Of a DNA stretch of 47,560 nt, positions 1 to 47,560 are shown piece by piece. The translations under genes and the position numbers were made by a program. Within the stretch, counting starts at the first letter, position 1; every line of letters begins with the position of its first letter. The notes under the pieces were generated by a model. It did not search any database. It saw only the letters and a program-made list of their open reading frames with translations, and was not told the DNA's origin. Source of the stretch: a virus (taxonomy: Duplodnaviria > Heunggongvirae > Uroviricota > Caudoviricetes); the IMG/VR virus record IMGVR_UViG_2630968533_000001. The stretch is one strand, 5' to 3'.

Positions 1-6
1 TGATAA

Positions 7-31
7 GCCCCTGTTGCAAAGGGGCTTTTTT
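7..31 (+). terminator. Rho-independent terminator (GCCCCT stem / AGGGGC, then T-run)
   Basis: Hairpin gcccct-gttgcaa-aggggc followed by TTTTTT at the window start; implies a + strand gene ending just upstream of the window. Confidence 0.5.
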
Positions 32-40
32 GTGCTCATA

Positions 41-153
41 GAATTATATAATTATATATTTATATAAAAAGTGCTTTACAGGTGGGAAAAAATTTCCTAT
101 GGTTATGCCCGAAACCGAGCGATACCCGCCCTGGTTAAACCGGAGATAACCCG
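41..153 (+). promoter_or_regulatory. Conserved promoter-leader cassette, copy 1 (AT-rich palindrome, -35 TTTACA 75-80, 17-bp spacer, -10 TATGGT 98-103, conserved leader, GGAG SD)
   Basis: Near-identical to 9344-9461 and 16303-16415; sigma70-like hexamers with 17-bp spacing read directly; ends at ATG 154. Confidence 0.55.
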
Positions 154-534
154 ATGAGCATGATTAAAATCCGCAAAAACGCTTTCCTTAAAATTCAAAC
201 TATCCTGGCTGGTTCTGTTGGCGTGATTTGCCGTTCTTCTTCAAGCCGCATCGATGACGGCTACGATGATGAGTATCGTTTGTCCTCGTGCGATGAGGCT
301 TTAACCTGGCTGAAGGAGAATCAGGAACGTGCCCAGGTATATCTGGAAACAGAGAACGGCAATCAGATGCTCCGTATTAGCGGTCGTTATGGATTTGAAA
401 CCACATTCATGGCCTATTTTAATCAGGCTTACTTTGACAAGGAGTTGGCCTGGTACACTGATCGCATGAGCAAAAGCGAGCCAGCCCCGATTACACCGCC
501 GAACGATAAACCATTTTTATTCCTCGTTAAGTAA
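154..534 (+). CDS. Hypothetical protein (126 aa) expressed from cassette copy 1
   Basis: ORF track; ATG directly after the conserved leader and SD; no domain recognised. Confidence 0.6.
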   Translation: MSMIKIRKNAFLKIQTILAGSVGVICRSSSSRIDDGYDDEYRLSSCDEALTWLKENQERAQVYLETENGNQMLRISGRYGFETTFMAYFNQAYFDKELAWYTDRMSKSEPAPITPPNDKPFLFLVK

Positions 535-637
535 ACACAATGCGCAAAGTGTCAAAATGACACTTTGCGAGTGTTAATATAGGGGGCGTTTGAAGATAGA
601 TAACTTATTGTGGGGCAAGCCGATAACTTACATTGGG

Positions 638-1063
638 TTAGCTTGAATAGGTAGTTGGTATTTTGAGCATATGGCCAATCTCTTCGAGATGCTTAGATGG
701 ATTCTCCCCAGTCTTACCTTCATGTATTGACGCTATATAGTTCAAATTTTGAGCTGCCCCAAGAATCTCGGTGGCTGATGGAACAAGACGAAAGCCGATA
801 TGTAACTTTTTGATATAGAAAGGTAAAGTGGAATATTTCGCCATTAACTGTGCTGCGGAATCTTTTAGATCATGAATGATTTCTGGCTTTAAGTTCGAGC
901 CAGGATTCACTATTTTTGCTTGGTTACACAATAACAGATTGGATATTTTCCCTAGCTGTTCCCTGAATGAAATGTAAGGCTCAATAGCTCCTTTGACGAT
1001 GAGTTGGCCTAGAACAAAAACACTTACACCAGTGACCACGGTGACAAAAGCAGATGAACTCAT
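638..1063 (-). CDS. Hypothetical membrane-anchored protein (141 aa, N-terminal TM helix)
   Basis: ORF track; hydrophobic N-terminus SSSAFVTVVTGVSVFVLGQLIV; divergent from the HTH gene at 1165. Confidence 0.5.
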   Translation of the reverse strand: MSSSAFVTVVTGVSVFVLGQLIVKGAIEPYISFREQLGKISNLLLCNQAKIVNPGSNLKPEIIHDLKDSAAQLMAKYSTLPFYIKKLHIGFRLVPSATEILGAAQNLNYIASIHEGKTGENPSKHLEEIGHMLKIPTTYSS

Positions 1064-1164
1064 TTTTTACCTAAAGCCTAAAGATTGGATTGTTAATACA
1101 TCTTATTTTGTCGTGAGTGGCTATGTCTAATTTATTGAATATCTAGGGAAAGGTAGAGGATGTA

Positions 1165-1425
1165 ATGACGGGTTACGAATTGAAATTATGGCGTCGTGGG
1201 ATGAACTGGACGCAGGAGCGAGCCGCCGAAGAGTTTGGGATATCGTTGGCTACATATAAGCGATATGAGAAGGGTGAGCCGCCGAGGGTCATTGAGATGG
1301 CCATTCGCGTTCTGTCGTTTGACGATATGGTTAAGGATCTTTCACACCTTGATAAAGATGTGATTCTGTTAAGGCTGCAAACCCTTGTATGGGAAAAGGT
1401 TAAAGTGTCGTCAGAATTGGAATAA
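1165..1425 (+). CDS. Small HTH (XRE-like) DNA-binding protein
   Basis: ORF track; N-terminal LWRRGMNWTQERAAEEFGISLATYKRYEKG resembles a Cro/C1-type helix-turn-helix. Confidence 0.55.
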   Translation: MTGYELKLWRRGMNWTQERAAEEFGISLATYKRYEKGEPPRVIEMAIRVLSFDDMVKDLSHLDKDVILLRLQTLVWEKVKVSSELE

Positions 1426-1486
1426 GGGATCAAATGATCCTTTACGGATCGTTTTATGGTGGTGTAATGTAAGCGCCAGAAAGACA

Positions 1487-1510
1487 AAAACCGCCTTGCC
1501 GGGCGGTTTT
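1487..1510. terminator. Bidirectional intrinsic terminator-like hairpin (AAAACCGCC...GGCGGTTTT)
   Basis: Perfect stem ccgcc/ggcgg flanked by an A-run and a T-run. Confidence 0.5.
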
Positions 1511-2246: not shown

Positions 2247-3416
2247 TTATGGTCTGCTCTTCTGTGCCAGCTTATCAGCACATGTTTTTATCAGATCCTG
2301 TAGTGTCCTGGCTGGCAGGTTTGCATCCAGTACGCTGAGTATGCTGTTGTGATCTGCTTGGTCGACTACTTTGCCTGTCGGTGGTAGTAGCTTGAGCTGA
2401 GGATTCAGGTTTTCGTCAAAGCTGATAAGTGCTCTGGCGTTTCTGAGCAGATCAAGAAGTAAGGCTGATATCACATTTTCCTGAGTCATTGCTGACAGAT
2501 TTAGCGCCGCTTTGGTTTTCCCTGTTGCCTTGTCAAACTCCTTGATTAGTTCCTTCCTGTAGTTCGGTTCCGTTAATAGCCGATTATGCTCTGTTGCCGC
2601 GCGGATAATCGTTTTTTCCTGGTACAGTCGTTTAGCCAGATCACGCTCGTACTGTGTTTTTAACACGCTGCTGATAGCGTTAAAGGCTTCAATGTAGGCC
2701 AGCTTGATATCTTTCACGCCTGGACCGTCGATACTTTCCATGAGCAAGGTAAATCCGTCTTTTGTCATGCGATAGATTGTTATTTCGCGGTCGCTTCCTT
2801 CCAGCGGTCGTTGCTCTTTAAAGAAATGACGTGCCGCAGCTGTGCGAGGAATGCGTAACGCATCGATGGCCATAACGATGGAATTGTTTGTGGTGCTGAA
2901 TGCCTGGGCAACATCGGCTGAGGTTGTGAGTGGCTCGTTGTTGCACACCTTAATGTAAAACATCGGTTTGGCGTTGAGCGTATCGACAACCTCACGAGCA
3001 TTGTTTGGCGAGACGGTTACGGTCGCGGCCGTTTGTGTGTTCTGGCTGAAATAGCAGTCTTCCAGCCGTTCGAACACATCCCAAGCCTGATCGGTTTCAA
3101 GCATTTTGGCGTGACGTGCAGCCCCGCGTTCTGTCCAGAGAATGAGGGAGCGGGCTTTCGGGGAAATTTGTAACCCTCTTAAAGATGGTTGCACATTTTG
3201 TGAGTGACTTAAAGTCACTCGCAAAGTTTTTAACTCATCGCCAGCCACTTTGAAAAAATGCTTTCCTTCAATAAAGCGGTTTGCGTTACGTGAGTAATTT
3301 TTTTTGATGTTATCAACGTCTGTGCCGTATAGCTTTGCCAGTAGTTCAGTAGTGATAACGGGGATCTGGTTATGCAGGATAGGCTGTAGGGTGTTAACGG
3401 TCGGAAGCGTTTTCAT
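2247..3416 (-). CDS. Phage antirepressor (N-terminal ORF6N-like and Rha-like domains)
   Basis: ORF track; N-terminal motif ITTELLAKLYGTDVDNIKKNYSRNANRFIEGKHFFKV typical of ORF6N antirepressors; central PLTTSADVAQAF segment Rha-like; start overlaps the stop of the upstream small ORF (ATGA). Confidence 0.65.
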   Translation of the reverse strand: MKTLPTVNTLQPILHNQIPVITTELLAKLYGTDVDNIKKNYSRNANRFIEGKHFFKVAGDELKTLRVTLSHSQNVQPSLRGLQISPKARSLILWTERGAARHAKMLETDQAWDVFERLEDCYFSQNTQTAATVTVSPNNAREVVDTLNAKPMFYIKVCNNEPLTTSADVAQAFSTTNNSIVMAIDALRIPRTAAARHFFKEQRPLEGSDREITIYRMTKDGFTLLMESIDGPGVKDIKLAYIEAFNAISSVLKTQYERDLAKRLYQEKTIIRAATEHNRLLTEPNYRKELIKEFDKATGKTKAALNLSAMTQENVISALLLDLLRNARALISFDENLNPQLKLLPPTGKVVDQADHNSILSVLDANLPARTLQDLIKTCADKLAQKSRP

Positions 3417-3604: not shown

Positions 3605-3769
3605 TGTGATGATTCCCTTAAAGGTTAAGGATACTCACCACCGTCAGGTTCCAATCATTGGGTGGTGAGACGTGCAGGGTTGGAACTACCGGACACAATG
3701 ACGAACCGGCGAGTCTTACGACTCCCCCGCACGCCCCACCATAATTTGGGTGTAGCAGTGCTTTACGCA

Positions 3770-3869
3770 TAAAAAAACCGCTAACGCGGTATGCGCCATT
3801 GTGTCTACGGGGTTCCAATCCCGACCGTAGATTTTGCTACGGCTCGGAAAGTGTCCACCAATGGCGCAT
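3770..3869 (-). ncRNA. Candidate structured small RNA / leader element (c4-like hypothesis)
   Basis: On the minus strand an 11-bp terminal stem (3791-3801 with 3859-3869) encloses an inner hairpin ctacgg/ccgtag, followed by hairpin accgc-gtta-gcggt and a U7 run (3770-3790); loop sequence has a near-complement at about 3680-3695 in the downstream leader. Confidence 0.25.
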
Positions 3870-4360
3870 TCATGTCAATACGGCGGGATTTTAACAGAGA
3901 CAACCACATAGCGTGGGTTTATTGGTAGGCAGAAACAAAAAAACCGCCCTATTGAGGACGGTTCTTTCGTGCTGATCGGATTCGCGGTCCTTTCAGCATA
4001 ACGTCGTTGTATAAACAACCACGCAAGCACAAGCAGCAAGTTAATTTTACCCAAAAGGTAATAATAGTCCACTATTATGCTTCAAAAAATTGTGGTTCTT
4101 GTTGTGCCTGCAAACTCACAGATTGTGGGTAGGTTACTGATTTTGTGAAAATAAACGAGTTTTTTCGTTTAATTTCTTTCCTATTACTAATCTTAAAATA
4201 ATCGTAAAATACCTGTGGACCTTCCCGCCGATTCGCACCCGGGCACCGACTTTAGGGGAGGATTCTCCGTTGCCGTACATGCAAGCACAAGCAGCCGTGC
4301 TTGCTCTCGCGTTGTTTTCGTCGGTGGGGATGCCGTGAAACGGCCTGTAAGGGCCATACA

Positions 4361-4483
4361 ATGAAAAAATACTGTATGTGTATTTTTATCGTTGTTACTG
4401 GGGCTTTGTTTACGCCACATGGGGAGGGTTGGAAGATTACTGATAACGCTCTGAATGTGACGATAAACATTAGCAGCAAGTAG
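4361..4483 (+). CDS. Small hydrophobic ORF (40 aa, MKKYCMCIFIVVTGALF...), speculative
   Basis: In-frame ATG within ORF 4301-4483; hydrophobic N-terminus; followed by a strong terminator; no SD seen. Confidence 0.2.
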   Translation: MKKYCMCIFIVVTGALFTPHGEGWKITDNALNVTINISSK

Positions 4484-4487
4484 CGAT

Positions 4488-4512
4488 TAGGCCCCTTCGG
4501 GGGCCTTTTTTA
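4488..4512 (+). terminator. Rho-independent terminator (AGGCCCC-TTCG-GGGGCCT then T-run)
   Basis: Perfect GC-rich hairpin followed by TTTTTTAT. Confidence 0.55.
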
Positions 4513-4548: not shown

Positions 4549-4797
4549 TTACTTCTGGTTGTATTGAGCCTTGAGTAACTCAAAAGATTTTGTCAGCACT
4601 TCTTTCAATGACATATCCATTGAGCTGGCGAACGTTTTGTACTCGCGTTTAAATTCAGGGTCGACGTTAAACGCCATTTGTGCCCCACCTGATTTGGTTC
4701 TGGTTGGCGTTTCAGTCGGGTCGAAAACCTGCGGTTGTTCGATCGATGGCGGTACGCCTTTGCTGTTCTTCTTTGGTGGTTTTGATGGTCCGGCCAT
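4549..4797 (-). CDS. ParG-like small ribbon-helix-helix partition/centromere-binding protein (82 aa)
   Basis: ORF track; lies directly downstream of parA in the same orientation; basic flexible N-terminus and C-terminal RHH-like segment MAFNVDPEFKREYKTFASSMDMSLKEVL; SD AGAGGGGA upstream. Confidence 0.5.
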   Translation of the reverse strand: MAGPSKPPKKNSKGVPPSIEQPQVFDPTETPTRTKSGGAQMAFNVDPEFKREYKTFASSMDMSLKEVLTKSFELLKAQYNQK

Positions 4798-4840: not shown

Positions 4841-5509
4841 TTACGCGGCAGTAGTCAGAGCCTCAAGCTGGTTGATAATCCCCTGAATAACGTCGTCTGC
4901 CTTTTTGCGTGGCGCAACGTATGAGCATTCAATGAGGCTTAAGCCCTTATCCTGAGCTTTGCTCAGAGCTGGCTTGTGGGGAATGTACTTATCGACAACA
5001 AAGTATGGCGTATTAGCCAGGTACTCTTGGGCTTCAATGTAGTCGGCTTCGTTTTCAGCCGCGCCTGAGAACACCATGCAAATTTTCTTGATTGGCACAC
5101 CCTTTTTAACGATGCCGTGAGCTGTGTTAACGGTGGTTTCCAGGTCATCGGTAGAGAATCTGGTTGGCAAAATAACCATATCCAGAAATTCAGAGAGCTT
5201 CGGTACTGATTCAGATGCGTAGGCACCGCCATCGACGATAACCAGGTCGTATACTTCTGATTCGATGATTTTCTGGACTTGTGATGGCGTGCCGCACGGC
5301 TGCGCCGCGATTGCAGGTTCGATATTGTTGGCCATTCTGCGTTGTACCCAACGCGTTACCGTTCCGTTAAGCACATCCATATCGATCAGGCATACATTCC
5401 AGCCGGCCTTTGCATAAGCAACTGCTAAAGCACGGGCAATTGTTGATTTGGTTACGCCGCCTTTTCCGTTGAAAATACCTACAGAGATAGTCATTTGTCG
5501 AGACTCCAT
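4841..5509 (-). CDS. parA: ParA/ParF-type partition ATPase
   Basis: ORF track; deviant Walker A GKGGVTKST near the N-terminus; about 220 aa, typical of small type Ib ParA proteins. Confidence 0.85.
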   Translation of the reverse strand: MESRQMTISVGIFNGKGGVTKSTIARALAVAYAKAGWNVCLIDMDVLNGTVTRWVQRRMANNIEPAIAAQPCGTPSQVQKIIESEVYDLVIVDGGAYASESVPKLSEFLDMVILPTRFSTDDLETTVNTAHGIVKKGVPIKKICMVFSGAAENEADYIEAQEYLANTPYFVVDKYIPHKPALSKAQDKGLSLIECSYVAPRKKADDVIQGIINQLEALTTAA

Positions 5510-5511
5510 GT

Positions 5512-5620
5512 ATTTGGTTATATAATTCTATAAATCTATATTTATAGAACGAGGTAAGCATAACCAACTTTTTGGCGGATGAAAAGCGTTTTATATAATT
5601 ATATAAATCTATAATCATGT
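5512..5620. repeat. Iterated AT-rich boxes upstream of parA (putative partition operator/centromere-like site)
   Basis: Two related boxes (5518-5549, 5589-5616) containing TATATAATT(A/C)TATA and AATCTATA; perfect 14-bp palindrome TATATAATTATATA at 5592-5605. Confidence 0.4.
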
Positions 5621-5644: not shown

Positions 5645-6019
5645 TCAGAGGTCAGCTATCGTTGATATCAGTTGATTTGCTAGCTGTCGCTGTTTACGTG
5701 AGAGGGTGAGAGCAGCTTCTGAGCGGTCGCTAAGAGGGGTGTTTTCATCAAGAATCATGAGGCATACAGAAATAATAGCCCTGTTATATGCCATCAATGG
5801 CTGGCACAGCTTCGATATCGCTGGCACATCGTATTGTAAGGCCGTTTTGAGGCAGACTTTTTGTTCTGATGCCAGATGAAGGATAGATTCTATCCAGTCG
5901 ATATCTTTCTCATTATCAATGATTTGGCATAACATACACTCAATCGCTATGTTCAACGCTTGGATTTCGATTCCAGCAGTGATCAGAGTTTCGTTTTTAT
6001 TGGCTGTATGTAATTCCAT
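5645..6019 (-). CDS. Hypothetical protein (124 aa) downstream of the repressor
   Basis: ORF track; no domain recognised; operator-like palindrome sits just upstream of its start. Confidence 0.5.
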   Translation of the reverse strand: MELHTANKNETLITAGIEIQALNIAIECMLCQIIDNEKDIDWIESILHLASEQKVCLKTALQYDVPAISKLCQPLMAYNRAIISVCLMILDENTPLSDRSEAALTLSRKQRQLANQLISTIADL

Positions 6020-6111: not shown

Positions 6112-6768
6112 TCATAACCAGTTGACAACACTAACTACGCGGCCAAGAACTTTATAACGCTTAAATTCCTCGTTATTCAGATGCTTAGTGTTCATTTCAG
6201 CATCCCTTTCGGTTGACAGCATAACAGCATTGTCACCCGGTATGACTCTACAGTGCCTCAAAACAACCAGGCCATTTCTGTCTTCAAGGGCATAGATCCC
6301 CTCATGAATCTCTGTATCGTCTGTATTAATCAGGACTTGGGAGCCAGGGGATATTGTTGGTGACATTAACTCATCGTTGCTCTGGAGAACTGACAGAGAC
6401 GATGGGTTGATGTTCTTGCTTCGTAGAATCTCCTGTTCTATCGCCAGCACTGGCTTTTCTCCGGCGTGCGATGCTATGTCATTTTTTATAGCTACAAGCC
6501 CAGGAATAACAGGAGCGTTAGTATTCTGGGGTGGGAACGGGTTATCTGTTAAGCACGCGATATAAGGCGCTGATGCTTTCAGGGCGTGCGCGATTTTCTT
6601 GATGGCAGGTATAGATGGTTGTCTTAATCCGGCCTCATAGTTCTGCAAGGTGCTTAAGCCTATTCCAGTGACTTGCTGGAGATCTCCGGCAGTCATGCCG
6701 GATTGTTTCCGTAGAGTCTGAATGCGCAGACCTATTTCTTTCTTGATGTTCTCGTCGTTGCTTTTCAT
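6112..6768 (-). CDS. cI-like repressor (N-terminal HTH plus C-terminal S24/LexA-like peptidase domain)
   Basis: ORF track; N-terminal HTH IGLRIQTLRKQSGMTAGDLQQVTGIGLSTLQNYEAG; C-terminal autocleavage-type domain; divergent from the cro-like gene. Confidence 0.8.
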   Translation of the reverse strand: MKSNDENIKKEIGLRIQTLRKQSGMTAGDLQQVTGIGLSTLQNYEAGLRQPSIPAIKKIAHALKASAPYIACLTDNPFPPQNTNAPVIPGLVAIKNDIASHAGEKPVLAIEQEILRSKNINPSSLSVLQSNDELMSPTISPGSQVLINTDDTEIHEGIYALEDRNGLVVLRHCRVIPGDNAVMLSTERDAEMNTKHLNNEEFKRYKVLGRVVSVVNWL

Positions 6769-6941
6769 GTCTCATCAATCGTGAATGGTGGGTTATTTAT
6801 ACATTACCACATTTAGTGGTTTTCACATGGTAAGACGAGAGGTGGACCACAAATAGAAGGTTATTTTTTGTTTCGCCCATTGAAAAACTCACGATATGTG
6901 GTTTTAATACCACATATCGTGGTTTAACTGGAGTTCGTTAA
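6769..6941. promoter_or_regulatory. Divergent repressor/cro promoter-operator region
   Basis: 12-bp perfect inverted repeat CACGATATGTGG/CCACATATCGTG at 6890-6921 and ACCAC-N5-GTGGT at 6806-6820 between the divergent genes. Confidence 0.5.
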
Positions 6942-7436
6942 ATGACCTTTCAGGAGTGGGTTGACGAAAATGGAGGCCAAATTGGTGTTGCCAGAAAGTT
7001 TGGCTTTACGTCATCACTGATTGGTGCCTGGTATCGCTTCGAGAGATTCCCTCGTGCGGATAACCTGACGCTGCTGGTGGCGTATTCGGAAGGCCGGATT
7101 AACGTCCAGCAATGGGCGGCAGATTTTGCCGAACGTCAGCGCCAGCGTAGCGATGGCACATCGGTTCGGCAGAACAAGATCAAAGGGAATCTCCCTGTTA
7201 ACTGCTTATCAAGGCTGAAAGCGGTTTTCTCTGAGCTGGGGATGCCTGCGGAGCGTTGCAATCTACGCGGTCCGCGATTCATTGCTCGCTGGAAACACTC
7301 ACACGTAACCGTTTCAGAGGTTCGTGATGCGATTACCGTGCTGGAGCTTAAGAATAAAGATTCCAGCGATATCGAGCTGATTCATAAGGAGATTAGCAAC
7401 GCCCGGCGTTCAGCACTTGGGAGGCTTGAGGAATGA
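6942..7436 (+). CDS. Cro/YdaS-like HTH regulator with C-terminal extension (164 aa)
   Basis: ORF track; N-terminus FQEWVDENGGQIGVARKFGFTSSLIGAW resembles Cro/YdaS-type HTH; first gene of the rightward early operon. Confidence 0.5.
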   Translation: MTFQEWVDENGGQIGVARKFGFTSSLIGAWYRFERFPRADNLTLLVAYSEGRINVQQWAADFAERQRQRSDGTSVRQNKIKGNLPVNCLSRLKAVFSELGMPAERCNLRGPRFIARWKHSHVTVSEVRDAITVLELKNKDSSDIELIHKEISNARRSALGRLEE

Positions 7437-7948: not shown

Positions 7949-8178
7949 GTAGTTATGTTCGCGGTGCTGCGATGCATTGCCAGAATCCCCAATTCTGGCG
8001 CTTTCTGACCAGTAAAACAGGGAAGAACGTTTCAAACAGTTCTGAGGCCTCTGTGATTCTGCGTGAGTTTTGCGGGATCTCATCCCGTAAAGAGCTGGCA
8101 AAGAACTACGCGGCCAGAAGCATGTATGTCCAGTTAATCAACGAGTTCAACCTCTTTATCAATGGTAAGGGGCGCTGA
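7945..8178 (+). CDS. Hypothetical protein (77 aa)
   Basis: ORF track; translationally coupled within the early operon. Confidence 0.4.
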   Translation: MSSYVRGAAMHCQNPQFWRFLTSKTGKNVSNSSEASVILREFCGISSRKELAKNYAARSMYVQLINEFNLFINGKGR

Positions 8179-8911: not shown

Positions 8912-8914
8912 ACA

Positions 8915-9292: not shown

Positions 9293-9343
9293 AAGTGTCA
9301 TTTTGAGCTGTTTTGATGGTGTGTAGACATCGGGAACATCGAA

Positions 9344-10529: not shown

Positions 10530-10538
10530 CAGTAAGCC

Positions 10539-10568: not shown

Positions 10569-10606
10569 ATTATATATTTATACAAATGTATAAGGACGCC
10601 TCGACA

Positions 10607-39968: not shown

Positions 39969-39998
39969 TTTGCGATTTGTTAATCCAAGGAATTAAGC

Positions 39999-42845
39999 GT
40001 GAGTAAATTATTATTTACGATGACTGACGCCGGGCGTAAGGCGCTGGTTAATGCCAACAAGACTGGAACAAATAAAGTTGAGATCGTTTCTGTTGGTTTA
40101 GGTAGTAGATATTATGCCACATCAACCACACAAACAAAAATAACAGATGAAATAAAGCGACTTACCACAATAGGAGGCAAAGTCGTTTCTCCTGATACCA
40201 TTCATGTAACTGCGAAGGATGATAGTAAAGATGAGTATGTTGTCCATACAATAGGTTTGTATACAAATAAAGGAACATTGTTTGCTGTATACTCGCAAGA
40301 ACAAGTAATAATAAATAAAGCATCTTCTACAATTGCTTTAATATCAAGTGATATAGCAATTAAAAATCTTGATACTAAAAACATTACATTTGGTGATGTT
40401 GAGTTTATTAACCCTCCCGCAACCGAAACTGTTGTTGGAGTAGCAAGATTTGCTAATGAACAAGAAATTGATGCAGGTACAGATGATTCCCTGGCTGTTT
40501 CAGCAAAGCGGCTTAAGCAAGCTATTGTAAAACATGAGCAATCACGTAATCATCCTGATGCAACTTTAACATCAAAAGGCATTGTTCAACTCAGTAATGC
40601 CACCAATAGCACGTCTGAAAAGCTCGCAGCGACGCCTAAGGCTGTTAAGGCTGCATATGACCTGGCTAACGCTAAATACACCGCACAGGACGCTACCACG
40701 GCGCGAAAAGGGATTGTTCAGCTCAGTAGTGCCACTAACAGTACGTCTGAAACGCAGGCGGCAACGCCAAAAGCGGTCAAGGCAGCAAATGACAACGCAA
40801 ATTCACGTCTGGCGAAAAATCAGAACGGTGCAGATATCCAGGATAAATCAGCTTTTCTGGACAATGTTGGCGTTACCAGCCTGACGTTTATGAAAAACAA
40901 TGGCGAAATGCCGCTTGATGCTGATCTGAATACGTTTGGTCCTGTTAAGGCTTATTCAGGTATCTGGTCTAAAGCAACATCCACCAACGCAACACTGGAG
41001 AAAAATTTCCCGGAAGATAATGCTGTCGGTGTGCTTGAGGTTTTTGCTGCCGGCAATTTTGCAGGTACGCAACGCTTTACCACGAGAGACGGCAATGTAT
41101 ACATGCGTAAACTCGCCAATAAGTGGAATGGCACTGATGGTCCGTGGGGCGTATGGCGTCACACTCAATCTGCTACCCGCCCTTTGAGTACGACTATAGA
41201 CCTGAATACGCTTGGAGCCGCCGAGCATCTTGGTTTATGGCGTAACAGTAGCTCAGCTATAGCTTCATATGAACGCAATTATCCAGAGGAAGGCGGCTTT
41301 GCTCAGGGGATGCTTGAGATCCTCGAAGGCGGAAATTATGGAAGAACGCAACGTTATACCACTCGCCGTGGAAATATGTATGTCCGCTGTCTTGCGGCAA
41401 GCTGGGATGCATCAAATCCGCAGTGGGAACCGTGGTTAAGAGTCGGTCATCAGTCAGAGAGTCGTTATTACGACGGTGATTTGAATGATGTAACCTCACC
41501 AGGTATTTACAGCGTTACAGGTAAAGCGACCAACGGTCCAATACTGGACGGAAACGGCGTGACAGTCCTCGGTATTCTGGAGGTGTTGAGGCGCTTTGAT
41601 GGTGTTAATGTATGGCAGCGTTATACAACTGCCGGAACAGGTACAACCCTTAAAGGCCGCACCTTTGAGCGCGTCTTTACCGGCAGCTCATGGAGCGAAT
41701 GGCGGGAAGTCTACACCTCGTATTCACTTCCCCTGAATCTGGGTATCGGCGGTGCTGTGGCAAAGCTCACCAGCCTGGACTGGCAGACCTACGATTTTGT
41801 GCCGGGCAGTCTGATAACCGTTCGGCTTGATAACATGACCAATATTCCCGACGGTATGGACTGGGGCGTCATTGATGGCAACCTGATAAACATCTCAGTC
41901 GGTCCGAGTGATGATTCTGGTTCGGGACGCTCAATGCATGTATGGCGCAGCACTGTAAGTAAAGCCAACTACCGCTTTTTTATGGTTCGCATTTCAGGAA
42001 ATCCGGGAAGCCGCACGATCACGACAAGACGTGTGCCAATTATCGACGAAGCTCAGACATGGATGGCGAAACAGACATTCAGCGGTGGTCTTTCAGGCGA
42101 ACTATCCGGCAATGCTGCTACAGCAACAAAGCTGAAAACGGCAAGGACAATTAACGGCGTAAAATTTGACGGCTCGGCAAATATTGAAGCGTTTCCGCCA
42201 GGTGTTCCGCTGCCGTGGCCATCAGATACGCCACCTGCAGGTTATGCAATCATGCTGGGGCAGACGTTTGATAAGGCAGCATATCCGAAACTGGCTATTG
42301 CCTATCCTTCTGGTGTTATTCCAGATATGCGCGGCTGGACAATCAAGGGCAAACCCGCCAGTGGTCGGGCCGTATTGTCTCAGGAACAGGATGGCATTAA
42401 ATCGCACACCCACAGTGCCAGCGCATCCAATACGGATTTGGGTACGAAAACCACATCGTCGTTTGATTACGGTACTAAATCAACGAATAACACAGGTGCA
42501 CATACCCATAATGTATCTGGTACTGCAAATAGTGCTGGCGCACATACTCATACCGTTCCATTAAGGAGACCAAACAGTGGCGGTATGAATTTCGACTGGC
42601 TGGATGGTTCATCAAGTGGCACGGTGGTGGGGAATGGAACTGTGCCTTCTTCTGGCGCACATACCCACTCAGTATCAGGTACCGCTACAAGTGCTGGGGC
42701 ACATGCACACACTGTTGGTATTGGCGCTCATACGCACTCTGTTGCGATTGGTTCACATGGACACACCATCACCGTTAACGCTGCTGGTAACGCGGAAAAC
42801 ACCGTTAAAAACATCGCATTTAATTATATTGTGAGGCTTGCATAA
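39999..42845 (+). CDS. Tail fibre protein (948 aa; GTG start)
   Basis: ORF track; duplicated collar motif [21 protein letters not shown]; His-rich C-terminal GAHTH repeats; followed by Tfa. Confidence 0.85.
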
Positions 42846-43462
42846 TGGCATTCAGAATGAGTGAACAATCACGTACCGTAAAAATTTATAACCTGCTGGC
42901 CGGAACTAATGAGTTTATTGGTGAAGGTGACGCATATATTCCACCTCATACAGGGCTGCCAGCTAATTCTACAGATATCGCCCCACCGGAAATTCCTGCT
43001 GGCTTTGTGGCAGTTTTTAACAGTGAAAATGAATCGTGGAATATTGTTGAAGACCATCGTGGTAAAACGGTCTATGACGTGGCGTCGGGGGACGCATTGT
43101 TTATTTCTGAACTCGGACCGCTACCAGAGAATGTCACCTGGTTGTCGCCAGCAGGGGAGTATCAGAAGTGGGACGGCGTATCCTGGGTGAATGATGAGGA
43201 AGCAGAAAAACTGTTTCGGATACGGGAAGCGGAAGAGAAAAAGGCAAGGTTGATCCAGGAAGCAACAGATAACATCGCAATTCTGCAGGATGCAGTTAAT
43301 CTTGAAATAGCAACAAACGAGGAAAATTCACAACTGGATTCCTGGAGAAAATACAGAGTATTAGTGAGTAGAATTGACACCAGTACAGCTCCGGATATCG
43401 TATGGCCAGAGCTGATGAATCAGGGTTATGTTCGGGAGGACGAGCAGATAACTTCAGACTGA
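42845..43462 (+). CDS. Tail fibre assembly protein (Tfa)
   Basis: ORF track; 205 aa immediately after the fibre gene. Confidence 0.75.
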
Positions 43463-43989
43463 AATTTAGTGATGAATGTTGAATCATCAGGAATATCATG
43501 CAATACCAATGCATGAGCACCTATTGTGACATTGTTTCCTATACGCACTTTGCCACCAAGAATGGTGGCATTACAACCAATGGTCACATTATGCCCTATA
43601 ACAATATCCATATCATTAAATTCCCCGCGAAGTCCAATAGTTACTCCGGGCTTAATTGAACAATTTTCACCGATTGTTACTTTGTGACCGATAACAACAC
43701 TGTTGAGATAAGAAATATCAAAGCCTTTCCCTATATTTACAGTTAAAGGGACTGTTACATTATATTTATCAAGAATGAAACGTTCTATTTTTCCCGCAAT
43801 CTTCCGACAGTATCCGCCTTTATCAAAAAGGTATTTGGCTATGCGCCACCAAAATAAATAACGAACCCTTCTATGTTTTATTGCGCGAACAATTGCCTTT
43901 CGCCAGGAGAAAGGACGCTCGCTACCGATTACTTCATAGTGAATACAGTCTTTAAGTTCATTAATATTCATATCTTTATTATTCAGCAT
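43426..43989 (-). CDS. Hexapeptide-repeat (left-handed beta-helix) acetyltransferase, CysE/WcaB-like
   Basis: ORF track; repeated [LIV]-G-x-x-x-x-I-G hexapeptides ([49 protein letters not shown]); convergent, 3' end overlaps Tfa by about 37 nt; AT-rich. Confidence 0.75.
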
Positions 43990-44469
43990 AAGATAATCAT
44001 GTGACCAATTATTGTAATAATTTTAATGGTATGTTTCTACTGGCTATCCAGCGTGTCTGATACCCAGTAACAAATCGTTAACACAGGTGCAATCAAATGG
44101 TGAGTGTTAAGACTGGCCACTTATTACCAGGTATGAGGGTATGAGTGGCCAGCATTAAATCAGAACAGCCCTTTAACTGAACTGGCCGCGCTGTTAAGGG
44201 ATGATGTCACCTTATCTTTGAAGCCGGACAGCATATTGCTGAACGATGAGTTTACCGCAGGTTTCTGGCTGGGAATCATTGACTGGAGTTAGGCCAGTAG
44301 TATGATGCTCGCAAAACGAGATCCAATTTAGATCCTTTTACTGGTGGATTATCGTTCGATCAGTGAGAGACTTCGTGCATGACCGAAAGTGTTGTGGTAG
44401 AGTTCTCTTAAAACCACGTAACGTGGTTATGATTGTGGGTGTCTGGTTGGAAAGTGACCAGATATGGAA

Positions 44470-44590
44470 ACAAAAAGCCCGCAGATAAATCTGCGGGCTT
44501 CTTGCGACATCCACGGAAAACCAACAATTAACCATGGGCGCCTCGACAACTCCCATTATACGTTGGTTTTCCGTGGACGCAAGAGCGAAC
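44470..44590 (-). ncRNA. CopA-like antisense RNA region (copy-control hairpins in the repA leader)
   Basis: On the minus strand: long stem-loop (44510-44577, arms TCCACGGAAAACCAAC / GTTGGTTTTCCGTGGA) followed by hairpin GCCCGCAG-ATTTA-CTGCGGGC and U-run (44471-44499), the architecture of IncFII CopA antisense RNAs. Confidence 0.45.
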
Positions 44591-44592
44591 AT

Positions 44593-45441
44593 ATGGATAG
44601 ACCAATGCCGTCTCTACGTTCAGCTTACGTTTGTAATTTGTCGCCGGAGTTCCAGCCTCCAAAGCACCATACGCACAAGCTGCCGCTGGTGTTATCTGAT
44701 GCTTTACAGCGCATTAATGGGCGTGATCTTACGTGTGAGGTTGCGTTCTACGTTAATCAACCGTCAGAGCGGAAGCGCCGGATAAACGAGCATCGTCGTC
44801 GGGCGATTAATGCTGTGATCGCTGCGATTTTGCACCATGTAAACATCATTTCTAAGCGGGTTCTGGCCAGTGCTGAGGCGTTGGCTGATTTTTGCGGCCT
44901 GTCTACCGTATCCGAAGCTGGGAACAAGTCTATAACACGCTGTACAAGGGCGTTGTCGCAACTGAAAGCGTTAGGTTTTATTGATTATGAACGTCGCTGG
45001 GATCGGGTGAATAAACAGTATTGGCCAGCGAAAATAGAGATTCGTGATCAACTGCTGGAAACCGTTGGTATTACTGAACAAGCATGGAGACGTGCGGTTA
45101 GCCAGAAACTTAATTACTTCAATGCGAAGAATAGCGAACGGCTTAAAAAAGCGATAACGGAGGCTGATTATAAGCGTATTGTTATTCAGGAGCAGATGGA
45201 GAATGTATGGCGTCAGAGGAAGACGGCCAGAGAGATAAAGGCAAAACAGAAAGCAGCGGAGAGAGCTGCGCGTCTTGTTCGGGAAAAGGGAGAGGCCGAA
45301 CTTCGTCATCAAATCACTAGAGAGGTTAGCCAGGAATTTGCTGATGGCATGTATCCTGGAGCTGACCTTGCATATTTACGATCCCTCGTTGAGCAGCGTT
45401 ATAACAGGTTAAGAAAGACCTGGAAATCACTCCAACATTAA
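44593..45441 (+). CDS. repA: Replication initiator RepA (IncFII RepA1-like)
   Basis: ORF track ORF 44464-45441; core CGLSTVSEAGNKSITRCTRALSQLKALGFIDYE recalled as close to R100/R1 RepA1; start placed at ATG 44593 to match the ~285-aa length of RepA1. Confidence 0.75.
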   Translation: MDRPMPSLRSAYVCNLSPEFQPPKHHTHKLPLVLSDALQRINGRDLTCEVAFYVNQPSERKRRINEHRRRAINAVIAAILHHVNIISKRVLASAEALADFCGLSTVSEAGNKSITRCTRALSQLKALGFIDYERRWDRVNKQYWPAKIEIRDQLLETVGITEQAWRRAVSQKLNYFNAKNSERLKKAITEADYKRIVIQEQMENVWRQRKTAREIKAKQKAAERAARLVREKGEAELRHQITREVSQEFADGMYPGADLAYLRSLVEQRYNRLRKTWKSLQH

Positions 45442-45479
45442 CCCACCTGAATGATGAATCCGGTTTTACCGGAGGATTA

Positions 45480-45700
45480 TCTACGTCGCAATAAAACATC
45501 TGTTCAAAAAACAATCTAAATTAATTTTCTCTAAACCTGAACACAGCAAAAATATCGCCTTTACAGGCATCGGCTAATAAAGTTATCCACAGTTTTGATA
45601 TGTATATGCAAATGGTTTTTTATAATAGATGCACTAAACAAATAAATGCAAAATCACTTTCTTTTATTAAGACTTTCTTTATTTAACTTACGCAGGCTTT
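45480..45700. promoter_or_regulatory. Putative origin region with DnaA box TTATCCACA (45583-45591) and AT-rich tract
   Basis: Perfect DnaA-box consensus directly downstream of repA followed by about 100 bp of AT-rich sequence, as in IncFII oriR layouts. Confidence 0.45.
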
Positions 45701-45910
45701 GCCTGTGAATATGTTCGCCCTTGCAGCGAGCTAAAGCTCGCGCCGGTTCGAGTCGCTACGCTCAAATATACCTCCTCCGGCACTTGCCGGAGGCATGGAG
45801 CAGCCTGATCATCCTTTTCGAAACGGCGCGTTTCGAACTATACAAAATCAATTTATATAAGGCCGAAATAAGGCCTACGGCCGGGCTTTGCAGGAGGAAG
45901 GGGCGAGCCT
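45700..45910. repeat. Cluster of five short GC-rich hairpins
   Basis: Perfect short inverted repeats caggc/gcctg, gcgagc/gctcgc, ctccggca/tgccggag, cgaaacg/cgtttcg, aggcc/ggcct within 200 bp. Confidence 0.35.
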
Positions 45911-46072
45911 TATCAATAAACGTCGATAAATACGCACACAGTAGCCATCAGAACGCGATAAAACGTAAGAAACATCATTTCCTATTAGACATAGAAAACT
46001 TGTCTTATACGCAATGTAGTAAATTTCTATTGCCACATAGGAAAAGATTTCCTACCATCGTAGATATAATAA

Positions 46073-46372
46073 ATGGAGATGGTTATGGATAAAGATACTG
46101 TTTTAAAAATGTTGAATCCGGCTTGTTTAAAAAAAGCGGATGAATGGGAATCTCCTACATGTGGAGAAGTTCGGGCAGTCATTGGCCTGACCGGAATGAG
46201 CGGCTCGCAGTTAGCCAAAAAACTAGGCTTAAAAGATAGTCGCAATGTTCGCAACTGGCAGATGTTAAAGGAGTCCACATCCAGATCCAGCATTCCGTAT
46301 GCAGCCTGGGCGCTGCTGTGTTACTTCGCTGGGTTAGGGTTAATCTTCATTGATAACAAAACAGATGTTTGA
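46073..46372 (+). CDS. Putative HTH DNA-binding protein with hydrophobic C-terminus (99 aa)
   Basis: ORF track; GEVRAVIGLTGMSGSQLAKKLGLKDSRNVRNWQ resembles an HTH. Confidence 0.45.
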   Translation: MEMVMDKDTVLKMLNPACLKKADEWESPTCGEVRAVIGLTGMSGSQLAKKLGLKDSRNVRNWQMLKESTSRSSIPYAAWALLCYFAGLGLIFIDNKTDV

Positions 46373-46659
46373 AACATGCAAATATGAGGTTTGTTATGGA
46401 ACTTGTACGCAAAACACGCAAAGAGTTCTTGGACCTGTATCGCATGGGAGCTTTCACTTGTGTTGTGGCTACCCAGGACGAAGTGACAAAAAGCTGGCGG
46501 CTTTTTGCTCTCAATAAAAAAGGGATTGCCGTTTTCATTGAAAAAGCCCGTGGTGGTATCCGCGAATGGGCGGGATTGAATTATGTGGCTGATTTTTGCG
46601 CAGCTATGGGGATTCGTCGCTGGGAAGTCCATATGCCAGGAGTAAAGTCACAAAAATAG
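46369..46659 (+). CDS. Hypothetical protein (96 aa)
   Basis: ORF track; coupled to the upstream gene. Confidence 0.45.
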   Translation: MKHANMRFVMELVRKTRKEFLDLYRMGAFTCVVATQDEVTKSWRLFALNKKGIAVFIEKARGGIREWAGLNYVADFCAAMGIRRWEVHMPGVKSQK

Positions 46660-46897
46660 GACTTTCGCGTCGAAAATGAGGCGAAACTGAAAACGAGATT
46701 TCATTAACAAATAAGCAACATAAAAAACGGTGGAAAACGCCCAGGAAAACATGATCTTTTGAGCGGATTTTTTAGATCCGACAATGAACGGTGATCCGGT
46801 GGTGCCGATAACGTCCATTATGTTAAATAGCCCCGTTTTTCTTGAAATTATAACTCACAGGTTATATAGTTAGTGATATAAACTACAGGTTATAGGA

Positions 46898-47251
46898 TTG
46901 AGCATGTGGACGGTACTTTTTAGCCAGCGATTTGACGACTGGCTAAATGAGCAAGAAGACGCTCTTCAGGAAAAGGTTTTGGCTGATTTGAAAAAGCTAC
47001 AGGTTTACGGACCTGAGTTACCCAGGCCATATGCCGATACCGTAAAAGGTTCTCGGTACAAAAATATGAAAGAGCTTCGCGTTCAGTTTTCTGGCCGTCC
47101 GATAAGAGCCTTTTATGCGTTCGATCCGATTCGCCGGGCCATCGTTCTTTGTGCAGGAGACAAAAGTAACGATAAGCGGTTTTATGAAAAACTGGTGCGT
47201 ATAGCTGAGGATGAGTTTGCAGCACATCTGAACACACTGGAGAGCAAGTAA
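46898..47251 (+). CDS. RelE/ParE-superfamily toxin (HigB-like gene order)
   Basis: ORF track; KELRVQFSGRPIRAFYAFDPIRRAIVLCAGDKSNDKRFYE matches the addiction-module killer signature as recalled; toxin gene precedes the antitoxin. Confidence 0.7.
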   Translation: MSMWTVLFSQRFDDWLNEQEDALQEKVLADLKKLQVYGPELPRPYADTVKGSRYKNMKELRVQFSGRPIRAFYAFDPIRRAIVLCAGDKSNDKRFYEKLVRIAEDEFAAHLNTLESK

Positions 47252-47550
47252 TGAGAACATTAGATGAGGCGATTGCCAGCCGTTCACCTGAAAGCCAGGC
47301 GCGAATTAAAGAAATGGCAGATGAGATGATTCTTGAGGTCGGCTTGCAGATGATGCGTGAAGAACTCCAGTTATCACAAAAACAGGTTGCTGAGGCGATG
47401 GGTATAAGCCAGCCAGCAGTAACAAAGCTGGAGCAGCGCGGAAATGATTTAAAGCTGGCGACATTAAAGCGTTACGTTGAAGCTATGGGAGGCAAATTAA
47501 GCCTGGATGTTGAGCTTCCCACAGGAAAACGAATAGCGTTTAACATCTGA
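47251..47550 (+). CDS. HTH (XRE-type) antitoxin, HigA-like
   Basis: ORF track; start overlaps toxin stop (TAATG); HTH LSQKQVAEAMGISQPAVTKLEQRGNDLKLATL. Confidence 0.7.
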   Translation: MRTLDEAIASRSPESQARIKEMADEMILEVGLQMMREELQLSQKQVAEAMGISQPAVTKLEQRGNDLKLATLKRYVEAMGGKLSLDVELPTGKRIAFNI

Positions 47551-47560
47551 TCAGAACGAA

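What the first reader, a model, noticed from the sequence alone, without database searches (positions are those of the whole stretch)
1..47560. Tailed phage genome carrying plasmid replication, partition and toxin-antitoxin modules (phage-plasmid architecture)
The window holds an essentially complete temperate phage (cI-like S24 repressor with cro-like switch, antirepressor, lysis cassette, lambda-type packaging and head genes, P2/Mu-type contractile tail) but no integrase or attachment site. Interleaved with these are three plasmid-maintenance modules: ParA/ParG-like partition genes (4549-5509), an IncFII-type RepA with CopA-like antisense hairpins and a DnaA box (44470-45700), and a RelE/ParE-type toxin with HTH antitoxin (46898-47550). 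The replicon sits directly after the tail-fibre module and the partition operon sits between the antirepressor and the repressor, so they are part of the phage, not a neighbouring backbone. A lambda-like head with contractile tail and an IncFII-type replicon is not a phage-plasmid family I can place.
Basis: partly seen in the sequence, partly recalled or inferred. Interest (0 to 1): 0.8.

Follow-up and report, generated by a model that had tools for sequence, protein, structure and literature searches.

The report
Complete E. coli phage-plasmid, uncharacterised family
The window is the whole 47.6-kb circle of a temperate tailed phage that lives in Escherichia coli as a plasmid instead of integrating; the family is common in sequence databases (it includes the 48.5-kb plasmid of reference strain ATCC 25922) but I found no published description of it.

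Summary
The window is a complete circular replicon. After rotation it matches a circular E. coli plasmid end to end, with four substitutions and two one-base indels. It carries a full myovirus gene set (lambda-type terminase, portal and capsid; P2-type contractile tail; lysis cassette). It has an immunity switch and a P1-type C4-RNA/antirepressor module. It also has a RepA replicon with an antisense RNA and a DnaA box, a ParA operon and a HigBA-type toxin-antitoxin pair. No integrase is present.

Relatives sit on plasmids in all 81 places found for the replicon in 5,426 complete E. coli genomes. Three near-identical genomes are deposited as Yersinia pestis phages.

- RepA is only a distant member of the IncFII superfamily.
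- The repressor's S24-like domain seems to lack the catalytic dyad.
- 'Cro-like' and 'ParG-like' could not be shown.
- A conserved dif-like Xer site exists.

New leads are repressor-type operators in the repA leader and before the par operon, and AT-rich arrays at seven to eight promoter regions. This is a new member of a known kind, of moderate interest.

The parts
1..47560 (.). Complete circular phage-plasmid genome, linearised between the toxin-antitoxin pair and the next gene
   Evidence: Full-length collinearity with a rotated circular RefSeq plasmid: 4 substitutions and 2 indels. The window ends are contiguous in NZ_AP022164.1.
44279..44306 (+). Promoter-like site upstream of repA (TTGACT, 16 nt, TATGAT)
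   Evidence: Consensus scan gives 10 of 12 matches. Conserved in the Salmonella relative. Function is inferred.
44413..44427 (.). Palindrome ACCACGTAACGTGGT in the repA leader, same form as the repressor operators
   Evidence: Exact match to ACCAC-N5-GTGGT. The half-sites are kept in five replicon variants. A heteroimmune relative has its own operator type at the equivalent place.
44462..44582 (-). Predicted antisense control RNA of repA: long stem-loop plus rho-independent terminator
   Evidence: MFE -69.5 kcal/mol, z -10.4. The Salmonella relative gives a similar fold, z -4.0. This stretch is nearly invariant in a 74%-identical replicon. Rfam CopA does not match.
44605..45441 (+). RepA replication initiator (278 aa from the conserved ATG; the open frame extends back to 44464)
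   Evidence: PF02387 E 1.3e-43 and NF040977 231.5 bits. The 44464 ATG is absent in the Salmonella relative, where PGAP codons including the stop, a 277-aa product.
45583..45700 (.). Origin-like region: DnaA box TTATCCACA (45583-45591) followed by AT-rich DNA
   Evidence: Read directly from the sequence. Origin function is inferred from the IncFII layout.
46801..46828 (+). dif-like XerC/XerD site GGTGCCGATAA-CGTCCA-TTATGTTAAAT; candidate multimer-resolution site
   Evidence: 2 mismatches in 22 specified positions. Present at the same place in every relative examined, with the XerD arm invariant.
46898..47550 (+). Type II toxin-antitoxin pair: HigB/Gp49-type RelE/ParE toxin (46898-47251) and HTH antitoxin (47251-47550)
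   Evidence: PF05973 E 5.7e-23 and HTH_3 E 3.9e-10. PGAP names agree.
4549..4797 (-). 82-aa gene downstream of parA; candidate centromere-binding partner
   Evidence: No family match; PHROG of unknown function. The model shows a disordered N-terminus and two C-terminal helices. No fold match. Weak in-register hhalign to ParG, E 0.06.
4841..5509 (-). Small Walker-type ParA partition ATPase
   Evidence: PF01656 E 1.7e-12. NF041546 ParA_partition E 4.7e-22, but below its cut-off.
5510..5618 (.). Two AT-rich arrays with 8-bp period upstream of parA (a third lies at 4810-4845); candidate centromere/operator
   Evidence: The motif gives 35 hits in the window against 0.30 expected. Repeats are listed. 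Conserved in the Salmonella relative.
5645..6019 (-). 124-aa gene of unknown function between the repressor and parA, preceded by an operator-type palindrome at 6055-6069
   Evidence: PHROG of unknown function. The palindrome is exact and conserved in four diverged relatives.
6112..6768 (-). CI-like repressor: N-terminal HTH and a degenerate S24-like C-terminal domain
   Evidence: HTH_3 E 4.5e-11; S24 E 0.0018, below cut-off. The Ser/Lys dyad is not recovered in an alignment with LexA and lambda CI.
6806..6923 (.). Operator cluster between the repressor and the early operon (ACCAC-N5-GTGGT at 6806 and 6909; degenerate copy at 6888)
   Evidence: Equivalent sites occur in the relatives.
6942..13177 (+). 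Early operon: unknown proteins, P1 Ref-type nuclease (8178-8582), DUF1064, DUF3560, ASCH and Ead/Ea22
   Evidence: PGAP names; PHROGs; Pfam. No recognisable replication initiator or helicase.
2247..3416 (-). Antirepressor (ORF6N + Rha domains), preceded by a 63-aa ORF at 3413-3604
   Evidence: PF10543 E 7.8e-21 and PF09669 E 4.2e-12. Antirepressor PHROGs.
3658..3843 (-). C4 antisense RNA (3658-3746) and isrK-like RNA (3771-3843) upstream of the antirepressor: a P1/P7-type ImmI module
   Evidence: Rfam RF01695 77.8 bits (cut-off 45) and RF01394 67.7 bits (cut-off 50). CTCACCACC in C4 is complementary to GGTGGTGAG ahead of the 63-aa ORF.
4215..4511 (+). ryfA-like RNA with a 40-aa hydrophobic ORF (4361-4483); possible type I toxin locus
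   Evidence: Rfam RF00126 141.8 bits, cut-off 80. ORF found.
13556..15038 (+). Lysis cassette: two holins, GH108 endolysin, Rz-like spanin
   Evidence: PGAP names; spanin PHROG.
21023..21578 (.). Largest non-coding stretch, directly upstream of the packaging genes; candidate cos region
   Evidence: No ORF of 50 aa or more overlaps 21214-21578. The first gene of Yersinia phage record OR545053 (415-1005) corresponds to window 21579-22169, which puts the record's base 1 near window 21165. This is inference only.
21579..28918 (+). Packaging and head module: ParB-N protein, small terminase, GpA large terminase, gpW-like, lambda-family portal, ClpP protease, decoration-like protein, gpE capsid
   Evidence: Pfam; small-terminase PHROG.
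30428..43462 (+). Contractile tail module: sheath, FII tube, chaperone, tape measure, gpX, gpD, gpV, gpW, gpJ, gpI, fibre, fibre-assembly protein
   Evidence: Pfam tube and gpD; PGAP names. About 1.4 kb of the fibre region, starting near window 40706, is 93% identical to P2.
43426..43989 (-). Hexapeptide-repeat O-acetyltransferase; accessory gene between the tail genes and the replicon
   Evidence: NCBIfam EpsC/CysE-type matches, all below cut-off. Many relatives carry an invertase at this place instead.
32..157 (+). Copy 1 of a ~120-bp cassette (AT-rich array, TTTACA-17-TATGGT, leader, GGAG, ATG). Copies 2 and 3 are at 9349-9466 and 16298-16420.
   Evidence: Self-similarity and alignment with about 115 invariant columns. 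Conserved in the Salmonella relative.

Best explanation
The window is the complete genome of a temperate myovirus whose prophage is a circular, low-copy plasmid: a phage-plasmid.

Shown here:
- One circle carries a full virion, lysis and immunity gene set together with a RepA replicon, a ParA operon, a HigBA-type pair and a Xer site.
- Relatives are found on plasmids and almost never on chromosomes; the replicon itself was never seen on one.
- Near-identical genomes are deposited as phages.

Inferred mechanism in the lysogen:
- RepA fires an origin downstream of its gene (DnaA box plus AT-rich DNA).
- A roughly 110-nt antisense RNA against the repA leader sets copy number.
- ParA and the 82-aa protein segregate copies, using the AT-rich arrays.
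- Host XerCD resolves dimers at the dif-like site.
- HigBA, and perhaps the ryfA-type locus, kill cells that lose the plasmid.
- The CI-like repressor holds the early operon off at three operators.

Inferred induction: the repressor's protease-like domain appears inactive, so induction probably runs through the antirepressor. The translation of the antirepressor is gated by C4 RNA, as in P1.

The repressor probably also binds the repA leader and the par operon, which would link immunity to replication.

Inferred lytic growth: it ends with cos-type packaging by a lambda-type terminase into lambda-like heads joined to P2-type contractile tails.
For: - Circularity and completeness.
- Replicon parts.
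- Partition.
- Toxin-antitoxin.
- Xer site, conserved in all relatives.
- Structural and lysis genes.
- No integrase among 69 features.
- Plasmid location: 81 of 81 places for the replicon and 91 of 92 for the structural block.
- The replicon is confined to 44-52-kb non-mobilizable plasmids plus one 94-kb record with two copies.
- Yersinia phage records named as myoviruses carry the same RepA at 98.5-99.4% identity.
- Synteny across six genera.
- C4 and isrK RNAs ahead of the antirepressor.
- Operator-type palindromes in the repA leader and before the par operon.
- A heteroimmune relative has its own operator 10-mer at the matching place.
Against: - Nothing here shows that this particular copy makes virions.
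- The virion evidence rests on how three GenBank records are named, not on a paper I could read (one search found none).
- No lytic replication function was recognised in the early operon.
- The partner of ParA could not be assigned a fold.
- The antisense RNA, the origin, the cos region and Xer function are all predictions.
- The leader palindrome could equally be an RNA hairpin.
Confidence: 0.9

Rival explanations
1. The element is a defective plasmid-borne prophage: a plasmid that keeps a phage gene set but no longer produces infectious particles.
For: No experiment bears on this copy. One PLSDB relative is shortened to 32 kb, and further short records (39 kb and 31 kb) appear among the E. 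coli genome hits. The element is non-mobilizable yet widespread, which vertical inheritance could explain.
Against: All structural, lysis and packaging frames are open. The structural half is 98.5% identical to genomes deposited as plaque-forming Yersinia phages. The gene order is kept across six genera, which suggests continuing selection on the phage genes.
Confidence: 0.12
2. The circle is the excised or replicating form of an integrative prophage, assembled as a separate contig, and not a stable plasmid.
For: One of 92 places for the structural block lies on a chromosome (not examined). A dif-like site exists that could in principle support Xer-mediated integration.
Against: No integrase or excisionase is present. 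A dedicated replicon, partition operon and toxin-antitoxin pair are present. All 81 replicon places in complete genomes are on plasmids. The same circle recurs in unrelated strains and genera.
Confidence: 0.03
3. The window is a cointegrate or chimeric assembly of a small IncFII-like plasmid and an unrelated phage.
For: GC content differs between halves: about 0.38-0.43 across the head and tail genes and 0.44-0.52 elsewhere. A related RepA (63%) also occurs on a plasmid with type IV secretion genes.
Against: The plasmid modules are scattered. Partition lies between the antirepressor and the repressor, while the replicon lies after the tail fibres. The same arrangement recurs in independent assemblies and in the phage records. 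Replicon and phage block co-occur almost one to one, in 70 against 71 genomes.
Confidence: 0.02

Closest known systems
Yersinia phages vB_YpM_39, vB_YpM_41 and vB_YpM_44 (GenBank OR545053-OR545055) and about 65 enterobacterial plasmids of 44-52 kb, among them the 48,488-bp plasmid of E. coli ATCC 25922 (NZ_CP009073)
   Same: Same family. Identity is 97-99% over about 86% of the genome, with the same RepA, ParA, toxin, repressor, head and tail genes.
   Different: The tail-fibre end differs: an invertase with alternative fibre genes replaces the acetyltransferase. The antirepressor is 84-88% identical, and some early genes differ. The phage records carry no taxonomy below 'Viruses', and I found no paper on them.
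Phage P1 / P7 (P1 group of phage-plasmids)
   Same: A circular plasmid prophage with a contractile tail. It has a C4 antisense RNA ahead of an antirepressor (ImmI), a Ref-type nuclease, and plasmid replication, partition and addiction modules.
   Different: Half the size (47.6 kb against about 95 kb; PMC11652158). Lambda-type GpA terminase and gpE capsid; from my own knowledge, P1 uses pac headful packaging. No Cre and no lytic-replicon gene are annotated. RepA belongs to a different family. The repressor is an HTH_3 protein rather than C1 (from my own knowledge of P1). The only nucleotide match to P1-size plasmids is a 60-bp stretch.
IncFII replicons (R1/R100 repA-copA-copB-oriR) and IncL/M-type relatives
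   Same: RepA of the PF02387 superfamily, an antisense RNA with two stem-loops against the leader, and a DnaA box with AT-rich DNA downstream of repA.
   Different: About 31% identity over 39% of the protein. Fails the IncFII equivalog model. No Rfam CopA match. No copB gene and no tap-like leader peptide were found by reading. An operator-type palindrome sits where a CopB-controlled promoter would be.
Lambda-head, contractile-tail temperate phages; nearest capsids are in Vibrio phage phi 2 and Paenibacillus phage Lily
   Same: gpE-type capsid and lambda-type packaging genes.
   Different: Capsid identity is only 47% and 40%. Apart from the five family records, no phage among 50,697 records exceeds 60%.
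N15 (linear phage-plasmid)
   Same: From my own knowledge, not checked here: N15's prophage repressor and an antisense RNA both control its replication gene. That is the nearest precedent for the proposed repressor-replicon link.
   Different: N15 is a linear siphovirus of about 55 kb (PMC11652158). From my own knowledge it is maintained with a protelomerase. The element here is circular, no protelomerase is annotated, and it has a contractile tail.

Membership tests
Phage-plasmid (general definition) | Complete set of virion, packaging and lysis genes | tested here: met
Phage-plasmid (general definition) | Plasmid replication and/or partition genes on the same molecule | tested here: met
   RepA and ParA. 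One circle.
Phage-plasmid (general definition) | Maintained extrachromosomally, without an integrase | tested here: met
   No integrase. 81 of 81 replicon places are on plasmids. The records are circular.
Phage-plasmid (general definition) | Forms infectious virions | not testable with these tools
   Indirect only: three 97-98%-identical genomes are deposited as Yersinia phages with a named host.
IncFII replicon (R1/R100 type) | RepA meets the IncFII equivalog model | tested here: not met
   TIGR03474 78.6 bits against 446.9, and NF010313 82.2 against 478. The superfamily models PF02387 and NF040977 are met.
IncFII replicon (R1/R100 type) | CopA antisense RNA | tested here: not met
   No Rfam CopA match at E up to 1. 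A structurally analogous antisense RNA is predicted.
IncFII replicon (R1/R100 type) | CopB repressor gene and tap leader peptide upstream of repA | tested here: not met
   No such ORFs were seen when reading 44000-44610. Only a conserved 9-10-codon mini-ORF at 44379 is present.
IncFII replicon (R1/R100 type) | Origin downstream of repA with a DnaA box | tested here: inconclusive
   A perfect DnaA box and AT-rich DNA are present. Origin activity was not tested.
P1 group | ImmI with C4 RNA and antirepressor | tested here: met
   Rfam C4 77.8 bits.
P1 group | P1-type structural genes, Cre/lox, RepL, size about 95 kb | tested here: not met
   Lambda-type head genes. No Cre or RepL is annotated. 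Size is 47.6 kb. The only DNA match to P1-size plasmids is a 60-bp stretch.
SSU5, pKpn, pSLy3, pMT1, pCAV, N15 and AB groups | Siphovirus morphology and size of 55-111 kb (Table 1 of PMC11652158) | tested here: not met
   Sheath and tube genes are present. Size is 47.6 kb. Table read. Gene-repertoire relatedness was not computed.
Type Ib partition system (ParF/ParG type) | Small Walker ParA followed by a small ribbon-helix-helix centromere-binding protein | tested here: inconclusive
   The ParA is 222 aa. The partner has the right size, position and secondary-structure order, but no fold or family match.
LexA/CI-type autocleaving repressor | S24 domain with catalytic Ser and Lys | tested here: not met
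   S24 is below cut-off. The dyad positions hold Glu (or Leu) and Ser in the alignment. The alignment has low identity, so this is provisional.
HigBA toxin-antitoxin | RelE/ParE-fold toxin gene first, then an HTH antitoxin gene | tested here: met
   PF05973 followed by HTH_3, overlapping by one base.

The most novel reading that the evidence does not exclude
In this family the prophage repressor may be wired directly into plasmid maintenance. Operators of the immunity type sit in the repA leader, just upstream of the antisense cassette, and in front of the par operon. Loss of repressor would then switch the same RepA replicon from copy-controlled plasmid replication to lytic amplification, with no separate lytic replicon.

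In a heteroimmune relative with a 27%-identical repressor, the site before repA has changed to that relative's own operator sequence.

A second, separate layer may exist. It consists of AT-rich arrays shared by the par promoter and seven to eight dispersed promoter regions.
Probability: 0.35. Interest if true: 0.6.

Novelty: new member of a known kind. Interest (0 to 1): 0.4.

Why it matters
Phage-plasmids move genes both as viruses and as plasmids. Surveillance tools type only the P1 and SSU5 replication genes among phage-plasmid groups (bioRxiv 10.1101/2025.09.12.675607). This family is found in about 1.3% of complete E. coli genomes and in several other enterobacterial genera. It sits in the quality-control strain ATCC 25922. 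Its phage relatives are recorded with Yersinia pestis as host. Its RepA has no homologue in any other of the 50,697 phage records searched.

A small, tractable phage-plasmid in a standard strain would be a convenient model. It could show how one replicon serves both lifestyles, and how immunity, copy control and partition are coordinated.

Tried and rejected
- The p0111 replicon type was my first guess for this element. Papers show that p0111 is a P1-group replicon, so I dropped it.
- Ten literature searches and two searches of supplementary files for member accessions found no description of this family.
- The Gilcrease and Casjens 2018 survey of enterobacterial plasmid prophages is not held. 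It may cover this family.
- vB_YpM_HQ103 turned out to be an unrelated 32-kb peduovirus.
- A scan of one genome per species with RepA found nothing.
- The first early protein gave a low-confidence model (pLDDT 56), so I ran no fold search on it.
- No LexA box lies in regulatory DNA. The single match is inside a head gene, at chance level.
- No tap-like leader ORF ending at the repA start was found by reading frames.
- A covariation test of the leader palindrome among members with 61-65%-identical repressors was uninformative, because all of them keep the same operator specificity. Only the C. freundii relative was informative.

Full report
**What the window is.** The 47,560-base window is a whole circular replicon. 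After rotation it aligns from its first base to its last with the circular 47,558-bp plasmid p5 of E. coli 254D-1. The only differences are four substitutions and two one-base insertions. In a second circular plasmid, NZ_AP022164.1, the window's last and first bases are adjacent.

**The phage half.** The following were confirmed.
- Packaging and head genes are a GpA-type large terminase (ATPase E 7e-76, nuclease E 1e-84), a lambda-family portal (E 7e-101), a ClpP-type protease, a weak gpD-like decoration protein and a gpE capsid protein (E 1.5e-55). A small terminase lies upstream.
- The tail has a P2 FII-type tube and gpD. PGAP names sheath, tape measure, V, W/gp25, J, I, fibre and fibre-assembly genes.
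- About 1.4 kb of the fibre region is 93% identical to P2.
- The lysis cassette has two holins, a GH108 endolysin and an Rz-like spanin.
- None of the 69 annotated features is an integrase, a recombinase or a protelomerase.

**The plasmid half: the replicon.**
- RepA matches PF02387 (E 1.3e-43) and passes the NCBIfam model RepA_IncFII_LM (231.5 bits, cut-off 70). It falls far short of the IncFII equivalog (78.6 against 446.9).
- By tblastn, classical IncFII RepA proteins are about 31% identical over 39% of the length. Only about 61 PLSDB plasmids hold a RepA at 80% identity or more.
- 'IncFII-type' is therefore right for the superfamily and wrong for the incompatibility group.
- The ATG at 44464 is missing in a Salmonella relative, where PGAP calls a 277-aa product. 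The conserved start is most likely 44605.
- Directly upstream, the minus strand of 44462-44582 folds into a 20-bp stem-loop followed by a 16-bp terminator with a U run (-69.5 kcal/mol, z -10.4). The Salmonella version folds the same way (z -4.0).
- This stretch is almost invariant in a replicon that is only 74% identical overall.
- Rfam's CopA model does not match. I found no copB gene and no tap-like peptide.
- A perfect DnaA box (45583-45591) followed by AT-rich DNA lies downstream of repA, as in IncFII origins.

**The plasmid half: partition, addiction and resolution.**
- ParA is a small Walker-type ATPase.
'ParG-like' is therefore plausible but not shown.
- The toxin is a Gp49/HigB-type RelE/ParE protein and its partner is an HTH protein.

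**Location and spread.**
- The replicon DNA occurs in 70 of 5,426 complete E. coli genomes. All 81 places are on plasmids.
- The structural block occurs in 71 genomes, with 91 of 92 places on plasmids. Replicon and phage therefore travel together.
- In PLSDB the replicon is confined to non-mobilizable plasmids of 44-52 kb, plus one 94-kb record holding two copies. The 48,488-bp plasmid of ATCC 25922 is among them.
- Three Yersinia phage records (49 kb; host Y. pestis EV76; names that denote myoviruses) are 97-98% identical and carry the same RepA, ParA, toxin and repressor. They are the only phage records among 50,697 with a homologue of this RepA.
- Apart from the five family records, the best capsid match among phages is 47%.
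- Diverged members keep the same gene order. I found them in Salmonella, Yokenella, Enterobacter, Citrobacter and Klebsiella.
- The toxin-antitoxin pair is swapped in some members: HicAB in Enterobacter and a ParE pair in C. freundii.

**Immunity.**
- The repressor (6112-6768) has an HTH_3 domain. Its S24 match is below threshold.
The identity is low, so this is provisional, but RecA-driven self-cleavage looks doubtful.
- No LexA box lies in regulatory DNA.
- The divergent region holds operators of the form ACCAC-N5-GTGGT at 6806 and 6909, with a degenerate copy at 6888.
- The first early gene encodes 164 aa with no family match. Its model was too poor to test, so 'cro-like' stands unverified.
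Rfam finds a C4 antisense RNA (77.8 bits) and an isrK-like RNA (67.7 bits) upstream of a 63-aa ORF and the antirepressor.
- C4 carries CTCACCACC, which is complementary to GGTGGTGAG just ahead of that ORF. This is the P1/P7 ImmI design.

**Further parts found here.**
- A dif-like Xer site, GGTGCCGATAA-CGTCCA-TTATGTTAAAT, lies at 46801-46828. Every relative examined has one at the same place, with an invariant XerD arm. I read it as the multimer-resolution site that stands in for P1's Cre/lox. This is an inference.
- A ryfA-family RNA (141.8 bits) with a 40-aa hydrophobic ORF lies between ImmI and par. It may be a type I toxin locus.

**Two regulatory leads.**

*First lead: repressor operators outside the immunity region.*
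- Exact operator-type palindromes also occur at 6055-6069, 36 bp before the 124-aa gene that heads the par operon.
- Another occurs at 44413-44427, in the repA leader 41 bp before the antisense cassette.
- A one-mismatch copy at 3903-3917 precedes the ImmI promoter.
- Sites allowing up to one mismatch number nine in the window, against 0.82 expected.
- The leader and par sites persist in members whose repressors are 61-65% identical, but these keep the same specificity.
- The informative case is the C. freundii relative. Its repressor is 27% identical and its operators contain TTTGTAGTCA.
- That exact 10-mer occurs three times in 20.8 kb. Two copies are in its repressor-early region and one is 70 bp before the antisense cassette of its own repA.
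- I did not find it before that relative's par operon.
- This pattern suggests that the repressor gates the replicon. A leader hairpin is the alternative reading for the window's palindrome.

*Second lead: dispersed AT-rich arrays.*
- An AT-rich motif with an 8-bp period (TTATATAATTMTATAWAT) gives 35 hits against 0.30 expected.
- The hits fall in eight intergenic clusters. Two lie upstream of parA, one lies between parA and the 82-aa gene, and five lie before other genes.
- Three of those five belong to nearly identical 120-bp cassettes that carry a promoter-like TTTACA-17-TATGGT.
- The Salmonella relative has the same clusters at the same places.
- What binds these arrays is unknown. The 82-aa protein is my guess.

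**Comparison with what is known.** The eight curated phage-plasmid groups (AB, N15, P1, pCAV, pKpn, pMT1, pSLy3, SSU5_pHCM2) are siphoviruses of 55-111 kb or, for P1, a 95-kb myovirus (PMC11652158). None fits. I found no paper describing this family. The most likely source, Gilcrease and Casjens 2018, is not held.

**Verdict.** The element is a clear phage-plasmid. Its sequence is already public many times over, but the lineage appears uncharacterised. I file it as a new member of a known kind, with moderate interest. The possible repressor-replicon coupling raises that interest somewhat.

Noticed in passing
window 4215-4511 (+): A ryfA-family RNA (Rfam 141.8 bits) with a 40-aa ORF, MKKYCMCIFIVVTGALF... 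at 4361-4483. It may be a type I toxin locus and a third addiction module. The Yersinia phage records carry different sequence at this place.
   Followed up: partly
window 32-157, 9349-9466, 16298-16420: Three nearly identical ~120-bp cassettes, each made of an AT-rich array, a promoter-like TTTACA-17-TATGGT, a leader, GGAG and ATG. They stand in front of three unrelated genes and are conserved in a Salmonella relative.
   Followed up: partly
window 34-69, 4810-4845, 5516-5543, 5589-5616, 9343-9378, 10560-10593, 15162-15195, 16303-16330: Arrays of an AT-rich motif with an 8-bp period: 35 hits against 0.30 expected. They are shared by the par promoter region and five other intergenic sites. The binding protein is unknown.
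   Followed up: partly
window 43426-43989 (-): A hexapeptide-repeat O-acetyltransferase sits between the tail genes and the replicon. Many relatives, the Yersinia phages and ATCC 25922 among them, instead carry a Hin-type invertase with alternative fibre genes there.
   Followed up: partly
L019 2765-3413; L015 11706-12414: The toxin-antitoxin slot after the replicon is exchangeable: HicAB in an Enterobacter member and a ParE pair in a C. freundii member.
   Followed up: no
L015 2952-6267: The C. freundii member has Mu-type baseplate genes (Gp45, GP46, Gp48) where the window has P2-type genes. It also has a Tn3-family transposase nearby and a 162-aa ORF inserted between the antisense cassette and repA.
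   Followed up: no
L016 8968-10852: A RepA 63% identical to the window's lies on a contig with type IV secretion genes, not phage genes. It is preceded by two HTH_3 regulator genes.
   Followed up: no
NZ_CP032086.1 (94,204 bp): This plasmid record holds two copies of the element. It is either a head-to-tail dimer or an assembly artefact.
   Followed up: no
E. coli complete genomes: One of the 92 places matching the structural block is on a chromosome. I did not identify or examine it. The replicon has no chromosomal place.
   Followed up: no
window 46234 and 46545: Two one-base insertions relative to RefSeq plasmid p5 of E. coli 254D-1 open ORFs 46073-46372 and 46369-46659. These ORFs are truncated in that record.
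   Followed up: yes
window 15332-15407 (+): A tRNA with anticodon CAT. ARAGORN calls it Met and PGAP calls it Ile.
   Followed up: no
window 18290-20286 and 21579-22169: Three ParB-N/Srx-domain proteins lie near the packaging genes, and one of them is fused to a methyltransferase. They are separate from the partition operon. An MT-A70 methyltransferase lies at 15715-16302.
   Followed up: no
window 44379-44409 (+): A 10-codon mini-ORF (MTESVVVEFS) ends just before the leader palindrome. The Salmonella replicon has a conserved counterpart (MESVMIEFF).
   Followed up: no
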